From assembly GCA_031272365.1 (NCBI GenBank), contig JAISTX010000013.1, forward strand, positions 256 to 64,255: a stretch of 64,000 nucleotides of DNA, in the 5' to 3' direction. Shown in pieces: positions 48,610-58,082 of the stretch. Made by a program: the position numbers and the translations under genes. The stretch comes from Eubacteriales Family XIII. Incertae Sedis bacterium. GTDB lineage: Bacteria; Bacillota; Clostridia; Peptostreptococcales; Anaerovoracaceae. Numbering within the stretch: position 1 is the first letter of the stretch; the number at the start of each line of letters is the position of its first letter. Under the pieces are notes generated by a model, which was given only the letters and a program-made list of their open reading frames with translations, was not told where the DNA came from and searched no databases.

Positions 48610-49524
48610 ATGACGATCGACCAGATGCGGTGTTTTCTCGTAGCGGCGGAGACGCTCAATTTCACCGAGGCGGCGAAACGCCTGTACAGTTCGCAGCAGG
48701 TAGTCAGCAGGCAGATTGCAAACCTCGAGAAGGAGCTGGGCTTCCGCCTATTTGAGCGCACGACAAAACGCGTGGCGCTGACGCCGCAGGGGGAGGCGCT
48801 CCTCCCCGCCTGGGAGAAAGCCCTGCGCGAGATCGACGGCGCGGTCGCGAAGGCGGAGGCGCAGGCGCAGGACAAAAAGAACACGCTGCGGGTCGGCATC
48901 GTCGACACCGTGAAGGCGATCTCCATCGCCAAGAAGGCCTTCATCGACTACCTCGAGTCCTACGGCGGCAAGCAGCAGAAAGTCGTGATCGAGCACCAGA
49001 CCCTGCCCGCCGGCCAGCTGACGGACCTCCTGCTGTGGGGCGACATCGACGTCATCGTCGTGCTCTCCTCGGAGCTCTCCGAGCAGAAGATCGAGGGGAT
49101 GGAGGTGCAGGTCCTGAAGACGCTGGAGGAGTACATCGTCTTCTCGAAGCGGCACCCCTTCGCCCAGAAGTCCCGGATCACGCCGAAGGACATGAACAGC
49201 GAGACGCTGATCCTGCCGTCCGGGGCCTTCTCGCACGTGTCGAACGTCTACATCCTCGGCGCGCTGAAGGCGAAGAAGATCGCGCCGGACAAAGTCCGGT
49301 TCGTGGACACGATCGACAGCATGGAGCTCGCGCTGTACGCGGGGAAGGGCTACGCCATCGCGCCCGACATCTTCTTCGAGAACGCGGGCAACAGCCTCCG
49401 GTTCCGCCGCTTCTCCATGCCGGCCGACAAGCAGGAGGCCCTCGTCGCCGCCTGGTCGAAAAAGAACAAGAGCAAGCGCATCCGCGAATTCATCGAATAC
49501 CTCATCAAGCAATATATAGAATAA
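48610..49524 (+). CDS. LysR-family transcriptional regulator
   Basis: N-terminal HTH: FLVAAETLNFTEAAKRLYSSQQVVSRQIANLEKELG. Confidence 0.92.
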   Translation: MTIDQMRCFLVAAETLNFTEAAKRLYSSQQVVSRQIANLEKELGFRLFERTTKRVALTPQGEALLPAWEKALREIDGAVAKAEAQAQDKKNTLRVGIVDTVKAISIAKKAFIDYLESYGGKQQKVVIEHQTLPAGQLTDLLLWGDIDVIVVLSSELSEQKIEGMEVQVLKTLEEYIVFSKRHPFAQKSRITPKDMNSETLILPSGAFSHVSNVYILGALKAKKIAPDKVRFVDTIDSMELALYAGKGYAIAPDIFFENAGNSLRFRRFSMPADKQEALVAAWSKKNKSKRIREFIEYLIKQYIE

Positions 49525-49551
49525 TTATTCACAACGAAAACGCGTGAATAA
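49525..49551. promoter_or_regulatory. LysR-type T-N11-A palindrome TTATTCAC-N11-GTGAATAA
   Basis: Begins at the base after the LysR stop and lies upstream of the symporter operon. Confidence 0.6.
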
Positions 49552-49661
49552 CCGCCGTTTTACTGTTTCACAAACCCGCGCCGAAAGCGCATGATGGGGC
49601 TATCGAGAGATGGTTAGCTTTTTGAGTCAATCAAAGTCTGTTTGAGAGAGGATGGTGTTTT

Positions 49662-51125
49662 ATGGTCTTATCAATCGTCATCGTATATGAACTACTTTCC
49701 GTTGTCGGCGTCGGCCTCTTGATCCGCGTCCTTGCGAAGCGGCGCGGGGAGAGCGAGGACTTCGTCACGGCGAACCGCTCGCTGTCCGCGCCGGTCATCG
49801 GCGTGACGCTCGGCCTGACCTACCTCGGGTCGCTGCACGTCTTCGGCGTCATGGAGCTCGCGTGGGACATCGGCTTCGCGGCCATCTGGGTGTCCGTCGC
49901 GCACGTCGCGATGATCTGCGTGATCTGCCTCGCGTCGGGCCGGTGGGTGCGCAAGCTGCGCGTCGCCACCGTGCCGCAGATGATCGAGCAGCTGTTCGGC
50001 AAGCGCGTCCGCGTCGCGACCTCGTGCGCGAACGCGATGGTCGTCTTCGGCATGCTCACGATGGAGGCGCAGGCCATCGGCATCGTGCTCTCCACGCTCA
50101 CGCCGCTGTCCATCCAGGCCAGCGCGGTCATCGGCGGCGTCATCGGCCTGTTCTACGTGCTCTTCGCGGGCATGAAGGAGATCGGCATCATCAACCTGAT
50201 CAACACGGTCGTCATGTTCAGCGGCCTCATCGTGACGGGGCTGACGCTCGGCGGCTACCTGCCGAACGGCTGGGAGGGCGTGCAGGCCTACTACGAGACG
50301 AGCGCGCAGCTCGACAAGCTGAGCGTGCTCGGCAACCCCGCCGTCATCATCGCGTTCGGCATCCCGACGCTCATCTCCACGGTCTTCTCGCAGGGCATCA
50401 ACCAGCAGGGCCTGCAGGTCATGATGGCGGCGAAGTCCGAGCGCACCGTCTACAAATCGCTGCCGTGGGCGGCCATCATCAACGGCTCGTTCACGATCTT
50501 CACGGTCGGCATCGGCGTCGCGGCGCTGTCCATCCCGGAGCTCCAGGCGCTCGGCGCGAAGGTCGGCGGCCCCATGCTCATCGTCAACTACCTGCCGCCG
50601 TGGCTCGTCGCCTGGCTCTGCGCGGGCTTCCTCGGCGCCCTGCTCTCGACGTTCGCGACGAACGTGATGGCGCCGGCGACGCTGTTCATCAAGGACATCT
50701 ACGTCACCTGCTCGGGCTCCAAGGATAGCGAGGCGGAGCAGGCGAAGAAGATCCGCATCACGATCGTCGTGCTCGGCGTCATCTCCATCATCAGCAGCTT
50801 CTTCCTGCCGGAGATGGTCGCGGGCGCAAACTGGCTCTTCTCCTTCCTCGTGCCGATCTTCTGGGTCGCCGTCTACGGCCTGTTCTGGAAGACCTCGAAG
50901 AAGGCCGCGGAGGTCACGCTGTTCGGCACCTGGATCATCAACCTGATCTGGTCGTTCACGCCGCTGCCCGCCGCGCTCGGCATGGAGGGCGTGCTCAACA
51001 GCTACATCACGCTGGCCTGCTCGCTCGTGATCGGCGTCGTCGCGAACCTGGCGCTGCCCGGGGGCGAGGCGCTGTTCAAGACGATGAAGGCGAAGAAGGC
51101 GGAAGCGCTCGCCGCGGCGGAATAG
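49662..51125 (+). CDS. sodium:solute symporter (SSS) family transporter
   Basis: 487 aa, about 13 TM segments, with the typical SSS N-terminal pattern. Confidence 0.8.
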   Translation: MVLSIVIVYELLSVVGVGLLIRVLAKRRGESEDFVTANRSLSAPVIGVTLGLTYLGSLHVFGVMELAWDIGFAAIWVSVAHVAMICVICLASGRWVRKLRVATVPQMIEQLFGKRVRVATSCANAMVVFGMLTMEAQAIGIVLSTLTPLSIQASAVIGGVIGLFYVLFAGMKEIGIINLINTVVMFSGLIVTGLTLGGYLPNGWEGVQAYYETSAQLDKLSVLGNPAVIIAFGIPTLISTVFSQGINQQGLQVMMAAKSERTVYKSLPWAAIINGSFTIFTVGIGVAALSIPELQALGAKVGGPMLIVNYLPPWLVAWLCAGFLGALLSTFATNVMAPATLFIKDIYVTCSGSKDSEAEQAKKIRITIVVLGVISIISSFFLPEMVAGANWLFSFLVPIFWVAVYGLFWKTSKKAAEVTLFGTWIINLIWSFTPLPAALGMEGVLNSYITLACSLVIGVVANLALPGGEALFKTMKAKKAEALAAAE

Positions 51126-51140
51126 AAGGAGGGACAAGGA

Positions 51141-51272
51141 ATGTTATTCTACGATTTTTGGGGAAAATGCGAGCTCATCATGCTCGCCATCACGGTCGTG
51201 GCCATCCTGATCGGCCTGCCGATGTACAAGAAGATGTCCGACGGGTCGGACGAAGAGCAGGAAGAGGCATAG
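51141..51272 (+). CDS. 43-aa single-TM peptide (candidate symporter accessory subunit)
   Basis: AGGAGGG Shine-Dalgarno. MLFYDFWGKCELIMLAITVVAILIGLPMYKKMSDGSDEEQEEA*. Below the ORF-track cutoff. Confidence 0.55.
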   Translation: MLFYDFWGKCELIMLAITVVAILIGLPMYKKMSDGSDEEQEEA

Positions 51273-51284
51273 GGAGGTAAAAAC

Positions 51285-51383
51285 ATGAACGGATACCTGA
51301 TTTGGCAGCTCTGCATGATCGCCATCGCGGCCATCTACGCCGTGACCGCGGCCGTGCTGACGAAGCGCAACAAGCAGCAGTGA
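51285..51383 (+). CDS. 32-aa single-TM peptide (candidate symporter accessory subunit)
   Basis: GGGAGG Shine-Dalgarno. MNGYLIWQLCMIAIAAIYAVTAAVLTKRNKQQ*. Confidence 0.5.
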   Translation: MNGYLIWQLCMIAIAAIYAVTAAVLTKRNKQQ

Positions 51384-51429
51384 ATGGCAGTGATCAAACA
51401 ATAATGAATGAGAGGATGGTGAAGACGAG

Positions 51430-51774
51430 ATGAAAAAAGTGGAACTGAAAGACGTGCAGTCGTACGCGGCGCCCGGCCATTTCGGGATGACGGCGTTCCG
51501 GCTGCAGGGCAAAGAGGAGACGGGCATCCAGACGTTCTGGGTCGGCAAGTCGTACTTCCTGCCGGGCGGCGGCGCGGACTGGGCGTACGAGGAGAACAGC
51601 CCGAACGAGAAGGTGTACTACATCCTCTCCGGGGAGATCACGGTGAAGAGCAAGACGGAGACCTTCCTCCTGAAAGCGGGCGATTCGCTGTACATCGGGC
51701 CGAACGAAGGGCGTGAGATGATCAACGAGGGCCGCGAGGTCTGCGAGACGCTGGTCATCATCACCTACGCGTGA
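51430..51774 (+). CDS. cupin-domain protein
   Basis: 114 aa with a beta-barrel pattern: YYILSGEITV...GDSLYIGPNE. Confidence 0.7.
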   Translation: MKKVELKDVQSYAAPGHFGMTAFRLQGKEETGIQTFWVGKSYFLPGGGADWAYEENSPNEKVYYILSGEITVKSKTETFLLKAGDSLYIGPNEGREMINEGREVCETLVIITYA

Positions 51775-51785
51775 GGGCCTGTGCG

Positions 51786-52715
51786 ATGGGCATCAAGAAA
51801 GTAGCGGTGCTGGGCTCGGGCCTCATGGGCAACGGCCTGTGCCAGGTCTTCGCGAAGGACCCCGGCACCGAGGTCGTGCTCCGGTCCCGGTCGATGAAGG
51901 ACGACCCGCTCGCGGGCATCCGGAAAAACCTCGACCAGCTCGTGGAGCACGGCGCGATGGCCGGGGCGGACGCGGAGGCATCGCTCGGCCGCATCTCGTT
52001 CACAGACGACATGGAGGCGGCGCTGAAGGGCGCGGACCTCGTCGTCGAGTGCGTGCCGGAGGACATGCAGATCAAGCAGGACCTGTTTGCCGGGATCGAG
52101 CCGCTCGTGCGCGAGGACACGATCCTCGCGACGAACACCTCGGTCATGAGCATCACGCAGATCGCGTCGAAGACGCAGAAGAAGGACCGCGTCGTCGGCA
52201 CGCATTTCTGGAACCCGCCCTACCTCATCCCGCTCGTGGAGGTGGTCAAGGGCGAGGGGACCTCGATGGAGGTCGTGGACAAGACGTATGACTATCTGAA
52301 GAAGATCGGCAAGAAGCCCGTGAAATGCATGAAGGACGTGCAGGGCTTCGTGGCCAACCGGCTGCAGCACGCGCTGTGGCGCGAGGCGCTGTACATGGTC
52401 GAGGCCGGCATCGCCGACGCGGCGACCGTGGACGAGGCGCTGCGCTACGGGCCGGGGCTGCGCTGGCCGCACCTGGGCGTCCTGGAGAACGTGGACATGA
52501 TCGGGACGGACCTGTCGCTGTCGATCCAGCGCGGGGTGCTGCCGTACCTCGCCGACGGCCACGAGCCCTCGGCGCTGCTGGAGCAGCTCGTGGCAGACGG
52601 GAAGCTCGGCTTCAAGACGGGCGAAGGGTACCAGAAGTGGACGCCGGAGGAGGCGGACGCGCGCAACAAGGCGCTGCGGGCGTACCTCATCCGCGTGACA
52701 AAAGACCTGGCGTGA
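51786..52715 (+). CDS. 3-hydroxyacyl-CoA dehydrogenase-family NAD-dependent dehydrogenase (carnitine-dehydrogenase-like)
   Basis: VAVLGSGLMGNG Rossmann motif, THFWNPPYLIPLVEV, GFVANRLQHAL. Confidence 0.8.
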   Translation: MGIKKVAVLGSGLMGNGLCQVFAKDPGTEVVLRSRSMKDDPLAGIRKNLDQLVEHGAMAGADAEASLGRISFTDDMEAALKGADLVVECVPEDMQIKQDLFAGIEPLVREDTILATNTSVMSITQIASKTQKKDRVVGTHFWNPPYLIPLVEVVKGEGTSMEVVDKTYDYLKKIGKKPVKCMKDVQGFVANRLQHALWREALYMVEAGIADAATVDEALRYGPGLRWPHLGVLENVDMIGTDLSLSIQRGVLPYLADGHEPSALLEQLVADGKLGFKTGEGYQKWTPEEADARNKALRAYLIRVTKDLA

Positions 52716-52775
52716 CCAGGGCGGGCATGTAGGGGCGAACTGCGTTCGCCCGAAAGGAAGGAGGAGAAGAAGGAG

Positions 52776-53573
52776 ATGGCAATAACAGTTGAGAAGAAAT
52801 TCGTCGACAGCATGTTCTCGCTTGCGGGCAAGACCGCGATCGTGACGGGCGCGACGGGCGCGCTCGGCGGCGCGGTGGCCGCGGGCTACGGCTTCGCCGG
52901 CGCGAAGGTCGTGGCGAGCGCGCGCAGCAAGGACAAGCTCGAGGCGTACGCCTATGAGCTCAAGGCGGCGGGCATCGAGGCGACCAGCTTCGCCGCGGAC
53001 CCCGCGAGCGAGGAGGACGTGAAGGCGCTCGTGAAGGCTGCCGTGGACACGTACGGCGAGGTGAACATCCTCGGCGCCTGCCACGGCTTCAACGCGCCGA
53101 AGAACATCCTCGAGCAGACGACGGAGGAGTGGAAGAAGATCATGGACGCCGACGTCACGAGCATCTACCTGCTCGCGAAATACGTCGCGGCGCAGATGGC
53201 GGCGCAGGGGAAGGGCGGCAAGATGGTCATCACCTCCTCGGCCCGGTCGAAGATGGGCATGGCGGGCTACACCGGCTACTGCACGGCGAAGGGCGGCGTG
53301 GACCTCATGGTGCAGAGCCTCGCCTGCGACCTGACGACCCAGCACGGCATCAACGTCAACTCGATCAACCCGACCGTGTTCCGCTCGGACCTGACGGAGT
53401 GGATGTTCGACAAGGAGTCGGCCGTCTACCAAAACTTCCTCAAGCGCCTCCCGATCGGGCGGCTCGGGGAGCCGTCGGACTTCGTAGGGCTCGCGGTCTT
53501 CCTCGCGTCGCCGGCGTCGGATTTCCTGACGGGCGGCAACTACGACGCGACGGGCGGCTATTGGGCTTGTTAA
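52776..53573 (+). CDS. SDR-family oxidoreductase
   Basis: [11 protein letters not shown] ... YCTAKGG (YxxxK). Confidence 0.88.
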
Positions 53574-53605
53574 ATTATTTATATAAGAAGAGAGGAGAAA
53601 AAATC

Positions 53606-54613
53606 ATGGGAAAGAAAGTATGGGTAGACCTGGCGCACCCCTTCAGCGCGGAGATCCCGCGGTGGCCGTATTTCGACAAGCCGGAGATCACGAACGCGCA
53701 CACGATGGCGAAGGGCGGCGTGCTCACGCAGAAGATCACGTGCACGATGCACACGGGCACGCACTGCGACGCGCCCCGGCACGTCATGGAGTACGAGTTT
53801 GACGGCCGGCGCGCGCGCTACACGCACGAGATGCCGGTGGACGCCTACACGGGCGACGCGGTTTGCCTCGAGATCCACATCAACAACTGGGGGCCGTACG
53901 CGAAGACGCGCAAGGCCGGCTACAACCCGGACTACGACAAGATCACGCGCGTGCCGACGCTCATCGGGCCCGAGCACCTCGACGACGCCTGCAAGCGGGC
54001 GGGCATCGACCCGAAGGAGCTCGAAGGCATGGTCGTCTGCCTCAACACGGGGCAGCACCGCGACTTCGACGACAGCAAAAACTACTACCACTACGCGGCC
54101 GGCACGGGCGTCGACGCGGGCCGGTGGTTCGTCGAGCACAAGGTCAAATGCGTGGCGATGGACAGCCAGGCGCTCGACCACCCGCTCCTCACGGCGATGG
54201 GCAACAACGGCATGACCAGGATGAACCTCATCGGCGCCTCGGGCATCCCGATCACGGAGGAGTACAAGAACGAGTTCGGCGAGGAGGCCTACGCGGAGTT
54301 CGACAAATTCGAGTACATCCGCATCTTCGGGCAGGAAGCCTACGACAAGAAGTTCGGCGACCTCGAGGCGATCGGCAACTGGGGCACGTGGGAGCCCTGC
54401 CACAAGATGATGCTCGGGCACGGCATCGTCGGCGTCGAGAACCTCGGCGGCGACCTCGACAAGGTCTCCGGCAAGCGCTTCCGCTTCTACTGCTTCCCGC
54501 TCAGGTGGTACCTCGGCGACGGCTCGATGGCGCGCTGCGCGGCGGAGATCGACGAGGACGACATCAACAAGGACGTCCCGGACCGCACCTACACCTACGG
54601 AGGGAACATCTGA
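53606..54613 (+). CDS. cyclase-family (kynurenine-formamidase-like) metal hydrolase
   Basis: HTGTHCDAPRH motif. Confidence 0.7.
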   Translation: MGKKVWVDLAHPFSAEIPRWPYFDKPEITNAHTMAKGGVLTQKITCTMHTGTHCDAPRHVMEYEFDGRRARYTHEMPVDAYTGDAVCLEIHINNWGPYAKTRKAGYNPDYDKITRVPTLIGPEHLDDACKRAGIDPKELEGMVVCLNTGQHRDFDDSKNYYHYAAGTGVDAGRWFVEHKVKCVAMDSQALDHPLLTAMGNNGMTRMNLIGASGIPITEEYKNEFGEEAYAEFDKFEYIRIFGQEAYDKKFGDLEAIGNWGTWEPCHKMMLGHGIVGVENLGGDLDKVSGKRFRFYCFPLRWYLGDGSMARCAAEIDEDDINKDVPDRTYTYGGNI

Positions 54614-55461
54614 TGAGCGATTTGAAGAATAAAAGAATCATCACGGTCGCGACGACGGGAGCCTGGCCGACGAAGGAAAACACGCCGAACGTGCCTTTGG
54701 AGCCGGAGGAGATCGCCGAGGAGGTCTATGCCTGCTGGAAGGAAGGGGCCGCCGTCGCGCATATCCACGTGCGCGACGACGAGGGCCGCGCCGCGATGGA
54801 GTTCGGGAAGTTCCAGAAGACCGTCGAGCTGATCCGCGCGAAGAAGGACTGCGACATCATCCTCAACCTGACGACGTCGGGTGGCGTCGGCCTCAAGGAG
54901 GAGGACCGCATCCGGCCCTTCTACGAGCTGAAGCCGGAGATGGCGTCCTACGACTGCGGCACGATGAACTGGCTGCACACGAGCGTCTTCGAGAACAACC
55001 CGGCCTTCCTCGAGAAGCTCGGCGGGCTCATGCAGGAGGTGGGCGTGAAGCCGGAGATCGAGGCGTTCGACCCCGGCATGATCTACAACGCAGCCTATTA
55101 TTTGAAGAAGGGCGTGCTGAAGGCGCCGCTGCACTTCCAGCTGTGCATGGGGTGCGCGGGCGGCATCGCGGCCTCCGTGAAAAACCTCGTCTTCATGAAG
55201 GAGACGATGGACTCGGTCGCGCCGGGCTCGACGTGGAGCACGTTCGGCGTCGGCGCGGGCGCGATGGAGATCCTGTACGCGGCGGTCGCGATGGGCGGCA
55301 ACGTGCGCGTCGGCATGGAGGACAACGTGCTGTACAAGAAGGGCGTCATCGCGGAGAACAACATGGTATTCGTCGCGCGCGCCAAGCGCATCATCGAGGA
55401 GTTTGGCTGTGAGGCCGCGACGCCCGCGGAGGCGCGGCAGATCCTGGGGTTGGCGCAATGA
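54613..55461 (+). CDS. beta-keto acid cleavage enzyme (BKACE/DUF849; 3-keto-5-aminohexanoate cleavage enzyme family)
   Basis: [10 protein letters not shown]...[13 protein letters not shown]...NLTTSGG. Confidence 0.8.
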
Positions 55462-56150
55462 TCAACAAAGTGATCCCCGTGAAGGAAGCCGTCGAGAAGA
55501 TCCCCGACGGGGCGACGATCATGTTCGGCGGCTTCATGGGGTGCGGCAACGCGCACCGGCTGATCGGCGAGCTGGCGGGCAGCGGCAAGGGCGGCTTCAC
55601 GATCATCTCCAACGACGCGTCCATGCCGGGCGGGCCGATCGGGGACGAGCACTACGGCATCGCCAAGCTCATCCACAACCGCCAGGTCAAGAAGCTGATC
55701 GCGACGCACGTCGGGCTGAACCCCGAGGTGGCCGCGCAGGAGCAGGCCGGCGAGCTGGAGCTCGTGCTGATCCCGCAGGGCAGCTTCGCGGAGATGATCC
55801 GGGCGGGGGGCGCCGGCCTCGGCGGCGTCCTCACCCCCACGGGGGTCGGCACCCTCGTGGAGGAGAACCCCTACGCCGAGGGGCGGGTCGCCGTGGACGG
55901 CAGGGACTACCTGCTCATGAAGCCGCTCACGGCGGACATCGCAATCATCGCCGGCTACTACGTCGACAAGATCGGCAACGTCTGGTACAAAGGCACGATG
56001 CGCAACTTCAGCGCCGTCATGGCGACGGCCGCGGACGTGGTCATCGCCGAGGCGGCGCATATCGTGGAGGTCGGCGACATCGTGCCGGAGAACGTCATGA
56101 CGTCCTCGATCTTCGTCGACTACGTCGTGCCGGGCCTGGGAGGTGCATGA
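55458..56150 (+). CDS. 3-oxoacid CoA-transferase subunit A
   Basis: [20 protein letters not shown] overlaps on both sides. Confidence 0.88.
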
Positions 56151-56785
56151 TGGAAGGCAAATCCGCAAAAGAGATCATCGCGCAGCGCGTCGCCAAGGAG
56201 TTCAAGCAGGGCGACGTCATCAACCTCGGCATCGGCCTCCCGACGCTGGCGGCCAGGTACATGCCGGAGGGGATGGACGTCTTCCTCCAGGCGGAGAACG
56301 GCATCGTCGGGCTCGGCGCGGTCACGGACGACACGAGCGACCAGCTCCACATCGTCGACGCGGGCGGCCAGCCCTCGATCGCCCGCCCGGGCGGCAGCTA
56401 CATCGACTCGGCGACGAGCTTCGGGCTCATCCGCGGCGGGCACGTGGACGTGACCGTCCTCGGCGCGCTCGAAGTGGACGAGAAGGGCAACCTGGCCAAC
56501 TGGATCATCCCGGGCAAGATGGTGCCGGGCATGGGCGGCGCGATGGACCTCGTCGTCGGCGCGAAGAAGGTCATCATCGCGATGACGCACACGCAGAAGG
56601 GCGCCCCGAAGATCCTCAAGGAGTGCACGCTCCCGCTCACGGCCGTGGGCGTGGTGGACATGATCATCACGGAGATGGGCGTCATCGAGGTGGGGCCTGA
56701 CGGCCTCGTCCTGACGGAGGTGAACGAGGGCTACACGGCCGAGGACGTGCAGGCGGCCACGGCCGCGCCGCTCATCGTCATATAG
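56147..56785 (+). CDS. 3-oxoacid CoA-transferase subunit B
   Basis: INLGIGLPT ... [11 protein letters not shown] (catalytic Glu context). Confidence 0.88.
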
Positions 56786-56789
56786 GTGG

Positions 56790-56818
56790 TTGACAGAAGC
56801 TACGATTTCGGCTAATAT
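56790..56818 (+). promoter_or_regulatory. near-consensus sigma-A promoter TTGACA-17-TAATAT
   Basis: gTTGACAgaagctacgatttcggcTAATAT. An 11-bp inverted repeat (tttcggctaat at 56806-56816 and attagccgaaa at 56834-56844) overlaps the -10. Confidence 0.65.
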
Positions 56819-56858
56819 GCTATTGAGATACAAATTAGCCGAAACGGAGGGAGCGATA

Positions 56859-58082
56859 TTGTTTTACCAACGCCACGCAGACGAGACCATCCGGAAGCTA
56901 TCAAAGATGTTTGGCGCGGTGCTCGTCACAGGAGCGCGTCAGGTCGGGAAAACCACGCTTTTGAAAGAGGTCGCAAGCGAAGCGGGCTACGTTACGCTTG
57001 ACGACAAACTCCTGCTGATGAGCGCAATCAGCGAAAGCGGCACGTTCTTCAAGGACAACCCGCCGCCTATTTTTGTGGATGAGGTACAGTACGCGCCGAA
57101 TCTCTTTCCACAGATCAAAATCATATTGGACAAAGAGAAACGAAAAGGGCAGTTTTATCTTTCCGGCTCACAGCAGTTTGCGATGATGAAAAATGTCAGT
57201 GAATCTTTGGCAGGACGAATTGGCATACTGAATCTTCCCTGCCTGTCTATGCGCGAACTTTATGGTATATCATGCAACACGCCGTTCCTGCCGACCGGCG
57301 ACTATTTCAGAGAGCGCGAGAAGGAAATAGCATACATCGCCTATTCCGATGTATGGGAAGCTATTCATCAGGGCGGCTTTCCGGAGTTATGCGCCAATCC
57401 AGATTTTGATTGGCGGATGTTCTTCGCCGCATATGTCAAGACGTATCTGGAACGCGATGTGCGCGATCTGGCGCAAGTAGGCGACGAAGTGAAATTTTTG
57501 CAGTTTATGACGGTTGCGGCGAGCTTGACGGGTAGCTTGCTCAACCTCGCGTCTATTGCAAGGGATGTGGGCATCAGCCAGCACACCGCTGAGCGGTGGT
57601 TGTCCATCCTGGTGGCGTCAAACCTGGTCTATCTACTCCCACCGTATCGCAACAACATCACAAAGCGGACGCTCAAAACGCCGAAGTTGTATTTTTTGGA
57701 TACCGGACTTGCAGCCTACCTCACAAGATGGACCACGCCGGATGTCCTGAAAAATGGGGCGATGGCAGGCGCGTTCTTTGAAACATTTGTGGTTTCGGAA
57801 ATCATCAAGAGCTACGCCAACGCCGGTATCCTTGACTTTCCGTTTTATTTTTATCGCGACCGCGACGGAAGAGAAATAGATTTGTTGATTGAGAACGGGG
57901 GTACGCTCTATCCGATAGAAATCAAAAAACACGCCGACCCCACGAAATCTGATGTGCGCACATTTTCCATCTTGGACAAGATTCCGGGCATGCGCCGAGG
58001 TACGGGCGGCGTGGTTTGCCTTTACGAGAACCTGATTACGCTTTCCGGCGAAGACAAGGTAATACCTGTTGCGCTTCTGTAG
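56859..58082 (+). CDS. AAA-family ATPase with a DUF4143-type C-terminal domain (COG1373-like); visibly lower GC than its neighbours
   Basis: Walker A VTGARQVGKTTLL. A TTG start at 56859 follows a GGAGGGAG Shine-Dalgarno; the annotated ORF start at 56790 lies inside the promoter. Confidence 0.75.
   Translation: MFYQRHADETIRKLSKMFGAVLVTGARQVGKTTLLKEVASEAGYVTLDDKLLLMSAISESGTFFKDNPPPIFVDEVQYAPNLFPQIKIILDKEKRKGQFYLSGSQQFAMMKNVSESLAGRIGILNLPCLSMRELYGISCNTPFLPTGDYFREREKEIAYIAYSDVWEAIHQGGFPELCANPDFDWRMFFAAYVKTYLERDVRDLAQVGDEVKFLQFMTVAASLTGSLLNLASIARDVGISQHTAERWLSILVASNLVYLLPPYRNNITKRTLKTPKLYFLDTGLAAYLTRWTTPDVLKNGAMAGAFFETFVVSEIIKSYANAGILDFPFYFYRDRDGREIDLLIENGGTLYPIEIKKHADPTKSDVRTFSILDKIPGMRRGTGGVVCLYENLITLSGEDKVIPVALL

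What the first reader, a model, noticed from the sequence alone, without database searches (positions are those of the whole stretch)
48610..56785. A LysR-controlled operon for an unidentified beta-hydroxy / beta-keto acid, centred on a BKACE enzyme
The gene order is: LysR regulator, T-N11-A box, SSS symporter with two mini-peptides, cupin, 3-hydroxyacyl-CoA-dehydrogenase-family enzyme, SDR, cyclase/formamidase-like hydrolase, BKACE (DUF849), and CoA-transferase subunits A and B. Most junctions are tightly spaced or overlapping.

**Established.** BKACE enzymes condense a beta-keto acid with acetyl-CoA to give acetoacetate plus an acyl-CoA. Known examples are Kce in lysine fermentation and the dehydrocarnitine cleavage enzyme next to carnitine dehydrogenase. 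AtoDA-type transferases then activate the acetoacetate.

**Inference.** The proposed pathway is uptake, then hydrolysis or ring opening (cyclase-family enzyme, cupin), then NAD-dependent oxidation to a beta-keto acid, then BKACE cleavage, then acetoacetyl-CoA. The lysine-fermentation partners kamA, kamDE, kdd and kal are absent from the cluster, so the substrate is probably neither lysine-derived nor obviously carnitine.
Basis: partly seen in the sequence, partly recalled or inferred. Interest (0 to 1): 0.6.

Follow-up and report, generated by a model that had tools for sequence, protein, structure and literature searches.

The report
Known phloroglucinol breakdown operon, new transporter
This operon is a copy of the oxygen-free pathway, published in 2023, that breaks the plant-polyphenol ring phloroglucinol down to acetyl units; what is still undescribed is a conserved small cupin protein and a sodium symporter with two tiny membrane partner peptides.

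Summary

The substrate is not unknown. The four central enzymes carry the diagnostic features of the anaerobic phloroglucinol pathway of Clostridium scatologenes (Zhou et al. 2023, PMC10470551):
- The SDR matches the crystallised phloroglucinol reductase 5G4K at 1e-110. The next PDB SDR scores 1e-38.
- The cyclase has the DPGC residues Trp20 and Tyr22.
- The 3HCDH enzyme keeps the catalytic Ser/His/Asn and lacks the two CoA-binding residues, like TfD.
- The BKACE has Trp in place of Kce Glu14, like TAL.

CtfAB recycles the acetoacetate. The same genome also encodes pyrogallol-phloroglucinol transhydroxylase orthologues.

This scan had already reached the same reading on at least 24 other genomes.

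Two parts remain undescribed:
1. A cupin without the usual metal ligands sits in 52 of 80 related clusters and in five bacterial classes.
2. An SSS symporter is followed by two conserved single-helix peptides. Five of seven sampled homologues lie inside phloroglucinol clusters. A complex model supports binding of the second peptide (0.77, best control 0.00).

Verdict: a new member of a known system, of modest interest.

The parts
48610..49524 (+). LysR-family transcriptional regulator, co-directional with the operon
   Evidence: It carries HTH_1 plus LysR_substrate. No NCBIfam equivalog reaches its cut-off. A 62% identical LysR holds the same position in metagenome locus L084.
49525..49551 (+). 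Candidate LysR operator: perfect 8-bp dyad TTATTCAC-N11-GTGAATAA (T-N11-A type)
   Evidence: It is a unique match, with 0 expected in shuffles. The half-sites are largely conserved in L084. Binding has not been tested.
49567..49595 (+). Promoter-like site TTCACA-17-CATGAT ahead of the symporter gene
   Evidence: It comes from a consensus scan. The block TTTTACTGTTTCACAAA, which holds the -35-like hexamer, is identical in L084. This is inferred only.
49662..51125 (+). SSS-family (PF00474) symporter, candidate phloroglucinol importer
   Evidence: The family assignment comes from Pfam. Homologues of 42-71% identity lie inside phloroglucinol clusters in 5 of 7 sampled contigs. The family is rare: 3 of 401 genomes sampled in the phylum have it. 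The substrate is inferred from context only.
51141..51272 (+). Mini-protein mp1 (43 aa): one transmembrane helix with an acidic tail
   Evidence: It has a Shine-Dalgarno-like AGGAGGG upstream. A peptide of the same type lies at the same position after 12 other family members. It has no Pfam family.
51285..51383 (+). Mini-protein mp2 (32 aa): one transmembrane helix with invariant Trp7 and a basic tail
   Evidence: It is conserved in 13 of 13 aligned loci. The Trp is invariant in all 13; the next residue is Met in 11 of the 13 (Gln in the window and L084); and a Tyr about 11 residues downstream of that position is kept in most. It has no Pfam family. The complex model with the symporter scores 0.77, against 0.00 for the best of 3 controls.
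51430..51774 (+). 114-aa cupin lacking the usual metal ligands, role unknown; conserved companion of the pathway
   Evidence: It matches Cupin_2. It occurs in 52 of 80 DPGC loci and in all five SSS-linked clusters. The invariant residues are Y12 H17 F43 P45 G47 G48 Y63 G68 P91 R95 N99. The model has pLDDT 95. The nearest folds are TM1459, RemF, DddK and KdgF.
51786..52715 (+). (S)-3-hydroxy-5-oxohexanoate dehydrogenase (TfD-type, 3HCDH family)
   Evidence: It carries 3HCDH_N plus 3HCDH. Aligned to C. butyricum HBD 4KUG, the catalytic Ser/His/Asn are kept, Lys56 is Ala and Asn221 is Gly. The paper describes the same pattern for CsTfD.
52776..53573 (+). Phloroglucinol reductase (PGR, NADPH-dependent SDR)
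   Evidence: It scores 368.9 bits, E 1e-110, over its full length against PDB 5G4K/5G4L. I counted about 63% identity from the alignment. The next PDB SDR scores 1e-38. The paper identifies this reference as the characterised PGR of Clostridium sp. ATCC BAA-442.
53606..54613 (+). Dihydrophloroglucinol cyclohydrolase (DPGC, cyclase family PF04199)
   Evidence: The family assignment comes from Pfam. It has Trp20 and Tyr22, exactly as in CsDPGC (sequence; paper). The metal motif HTGTHCDAPRH is kept. Trp20/Tyr22 occur in 86 of 86 homologues. It is the only DPGC-type gene in the genome.
54613..55461 (+). Triacetate acetoacetate-lyase (TAL, BKACE family)
   Evidence: It scores 347 bits on the BKACE model. 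Trp18 aligns with Kce Glu14, and the HxH and Glu zinc ligands are kept. This is the CsTAL signature. The Trp occurs in 61 of 65 homologues. It scores below every NCBIfam equivalog cut-off.
55458..56150 (+). 3-oxoacid (acetoacetate) CoA-transferase subunit A
   Evidence: It scores 189 bits on TIGR02429 against a cut-off of 128.5. Its start overlaps the TAL stop by 4 nt.
56147..56785 (+). 3-oxoacid (acetoacetate) CoA-transferase subunit B
   Evidence: It scores 292.6 bits on TIGR02428 against a cut-off of 243.55. Its start overlaps the subunit A stop by 4 nt.

Best explanation
This is a LysR-headed operon for anaerobic use of phloroglucinol (1,3,5-trihydroxybenzene), the ring fragment released from flavonoids and tannins.

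**Proposed route**
1. Phloroglucinol enters the cell, probably through the SSS symporter with its two single-helix peptides (inferred).
2. The SDR (PGR) reduces it with NADPH to dihydrophloroglucinol.
3. The Mn-type cyclase-family enzyme (DPGC) opens the ring by retro-Claisen hydrolysis, giving (S)-3-hydroxy-5-oxohexanoate.
4. The 3HCDH-family enzyme (TfD) oxidises this free acid to 3,5-dioxohexanoate (triacetate).
5. The BKACE (TAL) cleaves triacetate with acetyl-CoA into acetoacetate and acetoacetyl-CoA.
6. CtfAB converts the acetoacetate to acetoacetyl-CoA.
7. A thiolase encoded elsewhere in the genome yields acetyl-CoA.

**Status of the steps.** The enzyme assignments rest on orthology and on diagnostic residues. 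The chemistry itself was shown for the C. scatologenes enzymes, not for these proteins. The regulator's effector, the transporter's substrate and the cupin's role are inferred or unknown.
For: **PGR.** It matches 5G4K/5G4L at 1e-110. The next PDB SDR scores 1e-38.

**DPGC.** It has Trp20/Tyr22 and the His/Asp metal motif. These two residues occur in 86 of 86 homologues.

**TfD.** The catalytic Ser/His/Asn are kept. The CoA-contact residues Lys56 and Asn221 are replaced.

**TAL.** Trp replaces Kce Glu14, and the zinc ligands are kept.

**CtfAB.** Both subunits score above their TIGRFAM cut-offs.

**Conservation of the gene set.** The set cupin-PGR-TfD-DPGC-TAL-CtfAB recurs in 80 genome loci, including Flavonifractor plautii, Lacrimispora and Clostridium species. 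The paper names F. plautii and E. ramulus as carriers and shows CtfAB and thiolase in such clusters.

**Genome context.** Contig C56 of the same genome encodes full-length orthologues of both subunits of pyrogallol-phloroglucinol transhydroxylase. They score 1190 bits against 4V4C_A and 279 bits against 4V4C_B. C56 also encodes a thiolase.

**Operon structure.** The gene junctions are tight and there are no internal terminator-like sites.
Against: - No enzyme of this organism has been assayed.
- I could not fetch the C. scatologenes sequences, so I did not measure identity to them directly. The link runs through the 5G4K reference and through the residues named in the paper.
- The BKACE scores higher on the NCBIfam Kce model (292.7 bits) than on the 3,5-dioxohexanoate transferase model (222 bits), and passes neither cut-off.
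- Relatives of PGR could act on substituted phloroglucinols.
- No thiolase gene lies in the operon itself.
- The genome is 89% complete.
Confidence: 0.9

Rival explanations
1. The operon uses the same chemistry on a related ring compound rather than phloroglucinol itself. Candidates are a methyl- or acyl-phloroglucinol, or another cyclic 1,3-dione precursor.
For: The SDR is only about 63% identical to the characterised reductase. The genome holds a second BKACE/3HCDH/SDR/cupin set on C56, so the two sets may have different substrates. Some related clusters carry phloretin/DAPG hydrolase genes (L085).
Against: The substrate-pocket residues named for DPGC and TAL are identical to those of the phloroglucinol enzymes. 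No DAPG_hydrolase gene was found in this genome, but the control search was silent too, so this is weak. The genome makes phloroglucinol itself through AthL/BthL orthologues and has only one DPGC-type gene.
Confidence: 0.07
2. One reading: a pathway for a still unidentified beta-hydroxy or beta-keto acid that is imported as such. The cyclase-family enzyme and the cupin hydrolyse a lactam or ester precursor.
For: Family-level annotation alone (3HCDH, SDR, cyclase/formamidase, BKACE) allows it. No NCBIfam equivalog cut-off is reached for the central enzymes.
Against: [quoted passage not shown] The cluster is syntenic with known phloroglucinol degraders.
Confidence: 0.02
3. Sub-claim rival: the SSS symporter with its two peptides does not import phloroglucinol. 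It carries another solute instead, for example pyrogallol, gallate, acetoacetate or another organic acid.
For: The phloroglucinol-linked symporters do not form one clade in a 13-sequence tree. Other family members sit next to M24/HIBADH-like/cupin genes or next to the transhydroxylase genes. Characterised SSS substrates that I know of are mostly charged or sugar-like (my own knowledge, not tested here).
Against: Five of seven homologues, sampled for contig length and not for context, lie inside phloroglucinol clusters of Clostridia, Bacilli, Alpha-, Gamma- and Deltaproteobacteria. In this operon it is the only transporter gene.
Confidence: 0.35

Closest known systems
Anaerobic phloroglucinol degradation cluster of Clostridium scatologenes (PGR, DPGC, TfD, TAL, with thiolase and CoA-transferase; Zhou et al. 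2023, mBio, PMC10470551)
   Same: It has the same four enzyme families, with the same diagnostic residues: DPGC Trp20/Tyr22, TAL Trp in place of Kce Glu14, and TfD without the CoA-contact Lys/Asn. It has the same CtfAB follow-up step. A small cupin gene is present there too: CSCA_1081 appears in the proteomics supplement for phloroglucinol-grown cells.
   Different: The transporter here is an SSS symporter with two mini-peptides, not the major facilitator family transporter mentioned in the paper. The regulator is a co-directional LysR protein. The gene order is cupin-TfD-PGR-DPGC-TAL. No thiolase or kinase gene lies in the operon. The host is an uncultured Clostridia-type bacterium with 64% GC.
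Phloroglucinol reductase of Clostridium sp. ATCC BAA-442 (PDB 5G4K/5G4L; Conradt et al. 2016, as cited in PMC10470551)
   Same: The alignment covers the full length at E 1e-110 with about 63% identity. The SDR catalytic Ser and YxxxK are conserved, as is the Arg-Ser/Asn pair at the NADPH 2'-phosphate site.
   Different: The motif reads S-A-R-S where the reference has T-G-R-N. No kinetic data exist for this protein.
[quoted passage not shown]
   Same: It shares the TIM-barrel BKACE family, aligns over the full length (218 bits) and keeps the zinc ligands.
   Different: Glu14, which binds the substrate's 5-amino group, is Trp here. The score is below the Kce equivalog cut-off, 292.7 against 382.
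SSS symporters with small accessory subunits: PanF/YhdT (DUF997), ActP/YjcH (DUF485), VC_2705-type with DUF4212 (recalled from memory, not tested beyond Pfam)
   Same: In each case a sodium:solute symporter gene is paired with short membrane-protein genes in the same operon.
   Different: Here there are two peptides of 30-60 aa, encoded downstream. Neither matches any Pfam family. The symporter scores far below the PanF, ActP and VC_2705 cut-offs.
Rv1717 of Mycobacterium tuberculosis, a cupin reported as a beta-galactosidase (PMC7873859; NCBIfam NF050094)
   Same: It belongs to the same small cupin family: the window's cupin scores E 2e-17, 63 bits, on NF050094. Rv1717 lies in a predicted operon Rv1714-Rv1718 (PMC2724278). 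Rv1714-Rv1716 in that operon resemble the Clostridium phloroglucinol genes (PMC5894108).
   Different: The window's cupin scores below the equivalog cut-off of 175 bits. Nothing in the context here points to galactoside hydrolysis. The relation to Rv1717 was not tested by direct alignment.

Membership tests
Anaerobic phloroglucinol pathway (PGR-DPGC-TfD-TAL) | PGR: an SDR orthologous to the characterised phloroglucinol reductase, with the NADPH 2'-phosphate Arg-Ser/Asn | tested here: met
   It matches 5G4K/5G4L at E 1e-110 over residues 3-265. The next PDB SDR scores 1e-38. The Arg-Ser pair is present.
Anaerobic phloroglucinol pathway (PGR-DPGC-TfD-TAL) | DPGC: a cyclase-family protein with the conserved metal site, and Trp20/Tyr22 in place of the isatin-hydrolase Ile/Leu | tested here: met
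   Trp is at position 20 and Tyr at position 22. The HxGTHxDAPxH motif aligns with kynurenine formamidase.
Anaerobic phloroglucinol pathway (PGR-DPGC-TfD-TAL) | TfD: a 3HCDH-family enzyme with catalytic Ser/His/Asn but without the CoA-contact Lys56 and Asn221 of HBD | tested here: met
   In the alignment to 4KUG, Ser, His and Asn are kept, Lys56 is Ala and Asn221 is Gly.
Anaerobic phloroglucinol pathway (PGR-DPGC-TfD-TAL) | TAL: a BKACE with Trp replacing Kce Glu14 and intact zinc ligands | tested here: met
   In the alignment to 2Y7D, Trp18 stands opposite the Glu, and HxH and Glu are kept.
Anaerobic phloroglucinol pathway (PGR-DPGC-TfD-TAL) | The four genes are co-located and conserved as a cluster | tested here: met
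   They lie in one operon here. The same set occurs in most of the 80 loci.
Anaerobic phloroglucinol pathway (PGR-DPGC-TfD-TAL) | Enzyme activities on phloroglucinol and its intermediates; induction by or growth on phloroglucinol | not testable with these tools
   This needs protein assays or a culture. The organism is known only from a metagenome.
Lysine-fermentation Kce | Glu14 binding the 5-amino group; NCBIfam NF052387 cut-off of 382 bits | tested here: not met
   The Glu is replaced by Trp. The score is 292.7 bits.
Carnitine dehydrogenase with dehydrocarnitine cleavage enzyme | The dehydrogenase reaches the carnitine dehydrogenase equivalog cut-offs (NF005716 at 592, NF005471 at 414) | tested here: not met
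   The scores are 163 and 156 bits.
Sodium:solute symporter family (PF00474) | Pfam SSF domain above the gathering score | tested here: met
   It scores 93.3 bits against a gathering score of 22.8.
Known small subunits of SSS transporters (DUF997, DUF485, DUF4212, DUF3311) | The peptide matches one of these Pfam families | tested here: not met
   Five peptides gave no hits, or only chance-level hits, at E up to 10.
Metal-dependent cupins (TM1459, RemF, DddK, KdgF type) | His/Glu metal ligands of the two cupin motifs | tested here: inconclusive
   The fold matches at TM 0.8-0.86. By motif spacing, the ligand positions hold Glu/Asn, Lys61 and Arg95 rather than His. I derived this mapping by hand, not from a structural superposition.

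The most novel reading that the evidence does not exclude
The operon holds two undescribed working parts of the phloroglucinol pathway.

1. A three-component importer. It consists of the SSS symporter and two single-helix micro-subunits of families not yet catalogued. It would be the first transporter assigned to phloroglucinol or small hydroxybenzenes.
2. A cupin lacking the usual metal ligands, acting as a fifth accessory enzyme. One possibility is a keto-enol tautomerase for dihydrophloroglucinol or triacetate that speeds up the slow ring-opening step.

If the second part is true, the published beta-galactosidase label of its M. tuberculosis relative Rv1717 would be a side activity.
Probability: 0.3. 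Interest if true: 0.5.

Novelty: new member of a known kind. Interest (0 to 1): 0.3.

Why it matters
Phloroglucinol is the common ring fragment from anaerobic breakdown of flavonoids and tannins. Its fermentation turns polyphenol carbon into acetate and butyrate in guts and anoxic soils.

This copy adds little to the pathway itself. It does show that automatic annotation still misses the pathway. The BKACE scores best as the lysine enzyme Kce, the cyclase is called kynurenine formamidase, and the cupin family's only named member is called a galactosidase.

The useful leads are the transporter module and the cupin. No phloroglucinol transporter was described in the papers I searched. The cupin is expressed in phloroglucinol-grown C. 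scatologenes, yet it was never discussed.

Tried and rejected
- **Lysine-fermentation Kce and carnitine readings.** Rejected on residues and NCBIfam scores.
- **Direct comparison with the C. scatologenes proteins.** Not possible. Their sequences were not among the returned hits and could not be fetched by accession.
- **RNA evidence for co-transcription.** No RNA holder is listed. The only run that holds the stretch is a termite gut metagenome that may be the source of the assembly.
- **DAPG/phloretin hydrolase (PF18089) in this genome.** Nothing was found, but the control genomes were silent too, so this says nothing.
- **M. tuberculosis as a control genome for the cupin.** It is not among the controls, and the profile search's top 120 hits held no mycobacterial entry. 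The Rv1717 link therefore rests on the NCBIfam score and on two papers.
- **One clade for the phloroglucinol-linked symporters.** Not supported. The tree needs three changes and is poorly resolved.
- **PDB sequence search for the cupin.** Only weak hits.
- **The second AthL-like gene on C56 and the L099 neighbours.** Two Pfam scans failed on wrong coordinates. The first was repeated without the AthL-like stretch; that gene was later located. The L099 scan was not repeated.

Full report
**1. Observation**

| Gene | Coordinates |
|---|---|
| LysR | 48610-49524 |
| SSS symporter | 49662-51125 |
| mini-ORF mp1 (43 aa) | 51141-51272 |
| mini-ORF mp2 (32 aa) | 51285-51383 |
| cupin | 51430-51774 |
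| 3-hydroxyacyl-CoA-dehydrogenase-family enzyme | 51786-52715 |
| SDR | 52776-53573 |
| cyclase-family protein | 53606-54613 |
| BKACE | 54613-55461 |
| CoA-transferase A | 55458-56150 |
| CoA-transferase B | 56147-56785 |

From the symporter onward the gaps are 15, 12, 46, 11, 60 and 32 nt. The last three junctions overlap by 1, 4 and 4 nt. No terminator-like site lies on the + strand inside the operon.

The T-N11-A box is a perfect 8-bp dyad at 49525-49551. It is unique in the window, with none expected by chance. A promoter-like site follows at 49567-49595. In the closest syntenic contig (L084, LysR 62% identical) the dyad half-sites are largely kept. The block that holds the -35-like hexamer is identical over 17 bases.

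**2. What it is**

The SDR matches one PDB protein far better than any other. It scores 368.9 bits, E 1e-110, against 5G4K/5G4L over its full length. The next SDR scores 1e-38.

A literature search led to Zhou et al. 2023 (mBio, PMC10470551). That paper identifies this reference as the characterised phloroglucinol reductase of Clostridium sp. ATCC BAA-442. It then characterises its three neighbours in C. scatologenes:
- a cyclase-family dihydrophloroglucinol cyclohydrolase (DPGC);
- a 3HCDH-family (S)-3-hydroxy-5-oxohexanoate dehydrogenase (TfD);
- a BKACE-family triacetate acetoacetate-lyase (TAL).

The paper gives diagnostic residues for each, and I tested them here.
- **DPGC.** The paper names Trp20 and Tyr22 in place of the isatin-hydrolase Ile/Leu. 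The window's protein has Trp at 20 and Tyr at 22. It also keeps the His/Asp metal motif.
- **TAL.** The paper names Trp in place of Kce Glu14. The alignment to 2Y7D puts Trp18 opposite that Glu and keeps the HxH and Glu zinc ligands.
- **TfD.** The paper describes retained catalytic Ser/His/Asn and loss of the CoA-contact residues Lys56 and Asn221. The alignment to C. butyricum HBD 4KUG shows exactly this, with Ala and Gly at the two positions.

CtfA and CtfB pass the 3-oxoacid CoA-transferase cut-offs. They fit the paper's scheme, in which acetoacetate is converted to acetoacetyl-CoA.

**3. Comparative support**

A scan of one genome per species with the cyclase-family protein returned 302 relatives. 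The best 80 are 75-90% identical.

Mapping all eleven window proteins onto those loci shows the set cupin, PGR, TfD, DPGC, TAL and CtfAB recurring with small changes of order. The carriers include Flavonifractor plautii, Lacrimispora, Clostridium, Anaerostipes and many uncultured Clostridia.

Trp20/Tyr22 of DPGC are present in 86 of 86 homologues. The TAL Trp is present in 61 of 65.

**4. Genome context**

The genome is 2.92 Mb in 88 contigs, 63.8% GC and 89% complete. It has only this one DPGC-type gene. A second, unrelated cyclase-family gene lies on C49.

Contig C56 carries full-length orthologues of both subunits of the Pelobacter acidigallici pyrogallol-phloroglucinol transhydroxylase. 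They score 1190 bits against 4V4C_A and 279 bits against 4V4C_B. C56 also carries:
- a second AthL-like gene;
- a thiolase, MoeA and a second CtfAB;
- a second BKACE/3HCDH/SDR/cupin set;
- a distant paralogue of the symporter with its own two peptides.

The organism therefore looks like a trihydroxybenzene fermenter. It would make phloroglucinol from pyrogallol and degrade it with the operon in the window.

The only public run that holds the stretch is a termite gut metagenome, which may be the source of the assembly.

**5. Verdict on the interpretation**

The unidentified substrate is phloroglucinol, and the pathway is published. The SDR acts first, as the ring reductase. The cupin is not needed for ring opening in the published four-enzyme reconstitution.

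I reached this reading. The scan's earlier notes show that the same conclusion was reached on at least 24 other genomes, including the remark that the cupin is unexplained.

**6. What is not yet described: the cupin**

The cupin is present in 52 of the 80 loci. It is also present in all five symporter-linked clusters from other classes.

Zhou et al. never mention it in the text. No paper in the library holds both 'phloroglucinol reductase' and 'cupin'. Yet their proteomics supplement lists the C. scatologenes cupin CSCA_1081 among proteins from phloroglucinol-grown cells.

An alignment of 36 members shows these residues:
- invariant: Y12, H17, F43, P45, G47, G48, Y63, G68, P91, R95, N99;
- near-invariant: E30, W37, S41, Y53, E60, K61, E69, E93.

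By motif spacing, Lys61 and Arg95 stand where metal-binding His or Glu residues stand in classical cupins. I derived this mapping by hand.

The model is confident, with pLDDT 95. Its nearest solved folds are TM1459, the polyketide cyclase RemF, DddK and KdgF.

A helper role is my speculation. It could, for example, tautomerise dihydrophloroglucinol or triacetate ahead of the slow DPGC step. I give that specific idea about 15%.

The family's only named member is M. tuberculosis Rv1717, published as a beta-galactosidase (PMC7873859) and now an NCBIfam equivalog. Rv1717 lies in a predicted operon Rv1714-Rv1718 (PMC2724278). Rv1714-Rv1716 resemble the Clostridium phloroglucinol genes (PMC5894108). 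That context argues for a role in this pathway.

**7. What is not yet described: the transporter**

The symporter belongs to a rare family, found in 3 of 401 sampled genomes of the phylum.

I picked seven homologues (42-71% identical) for long contigs or named organisms, not for their context. Five lie inside phloroglucinol clusters:
- a metagenome contig;
- Tropicimonas;
- Metabacillus endolithicus;
- Paraglaciecola;
- Desulfopila.

The Desulfopila cluster also sits beside an AthL-like gene. The other two homologues, and further ones in Bacillota, lie in different contexts. Twice this is a sigma-54 / M24 / HIBADH-like / cupin set. A small tree does not make the phloroglucinol-linked symporters one clade.

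Both mini-peptide types follow 12 of the 13 other family members examined:
- mp1 is a helix with a mostly acidic tail. Its sequence is weakly conserved.
- mp2 has an invariant Trp, followed by Met in 11 of the 13 aligned sequences (Gln in the window and L084). It also has a Tyr about 11 residues downstream of that position in most sequences, and a basic tail.
- Neither matches any Pfam family.

I ran a complex prediction of symporter, mp1 and mp2, with mp2 as the scored partner.
- The median score was 0.77, against 0.00 for the best of 3 controls.
- That mark was reached by 58 of 80 solved complexes and by 2 of 110 mismatched pairs in the tool's calibration.
- The runs agree in at least 98% of their contacts, and the partner's pLDDT is at least 80.
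- The tool notes that my own alignments and the three-chain set-up differ from its calibration.
- The predicted contacts include invariant symporter residues Cys122 and Trp391 and the invariant Trp7 of mp2.

This supports binding but does not show it.

**8. Scores**

The finding is real, but it is a further copy of a known system that this scan has met many times. I rate it a new member of a known kind, with interest 0.3. The residual value lies in the transporter module and the cupin.

Noticed in passing
own genome, contig C56 about 84-108.5 kb (loci L101, L102): A second polyphenol locus. It holds a Liv-type ABC transporter, a 3HCDH, a BKACE (57% identical to the window's TAL, with Ile at the Trp position), an SDR and a cupin. 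It also holds a sigma-54 PAS activator, an M24 creatinase-like protein and an AthL orthologue (1190 bits against 4V4C_A). Further genes are an SSS paralogue with two peptides, a thiolase, a second AthL-like gene, a BthL orthologue, CtfAB and MoeA. It looks like a pyrogallol or related trihydroxybenzene funnel.
   Followed up: partly
window 51430-51774, and literature on M. tuberculosis Rv1717: The cupin family's only characterised member, Rv1717, is published and named in NCBIfam (NF050094) as a beta-galactosidase. It lies in the predicted operon Rv1714-Rv1718, whose first genes resemble phloroglucinol-pathway genes (PMC2724278, PMC5894108). The label may reflect a side activity.
   Followed up: partly
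L091 7193-11785; L097 9272-16108; own C56 92055-99600: The same symporter-plus-two-peptide module recurs in a second conserved context: a sigma-54 activator, an M24 creatinase-like protein, a HIBADH-like dehydrogenase and a different cupin. Molybdopterin and Fe-S enzyme genes are sometimes adjacent. The substrate is unknown.
   Followed up: partly
own genome, contig C20 549-3301 (locus L100): A 40% identical paralogue of the symporter has a divergent LysR gene and its own mp1 and mp2 peptides. A CobW-family GTPase gene and a hybrid-cluster (prismane) protein gene follow.
   Followed up: partly
window 54613-55461: The NCBIfam equivalog for 3,5-dioxohexanoate:acetyl-CoA transferase (NF053538, 310 positions) fits the longer proteobacterial type. 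This Kce-like TAL of about 280 aa scores higher on the Kce model than on it (292.7 against 222 bits). Such genes are therefore likely to be mislabelled as lysine-fermentation Kce.
   Followed up: partly
window 53606-54613 and loci L001-L080: DPGC is unusually conserved. It is 75-90% identical across MAGs labelled Clostridia, Lachnospiraceae, Dehalococcoidia, Spirochaetaceae and Brachyspira, far more than the neighbouring PGR, TfD or cupin. This suggests strong constraint or lateral spread.
   Followed up: no
window 56790-58082: A DUF4143/AAA_14 ATPase gene lies in a stretch of about 50% GC directly after ctfB, between the operon and the atp genes. A DUF4143 gene also lies near the syntenic cluster in L084, but it is only 21% identical.
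   Followed up: no
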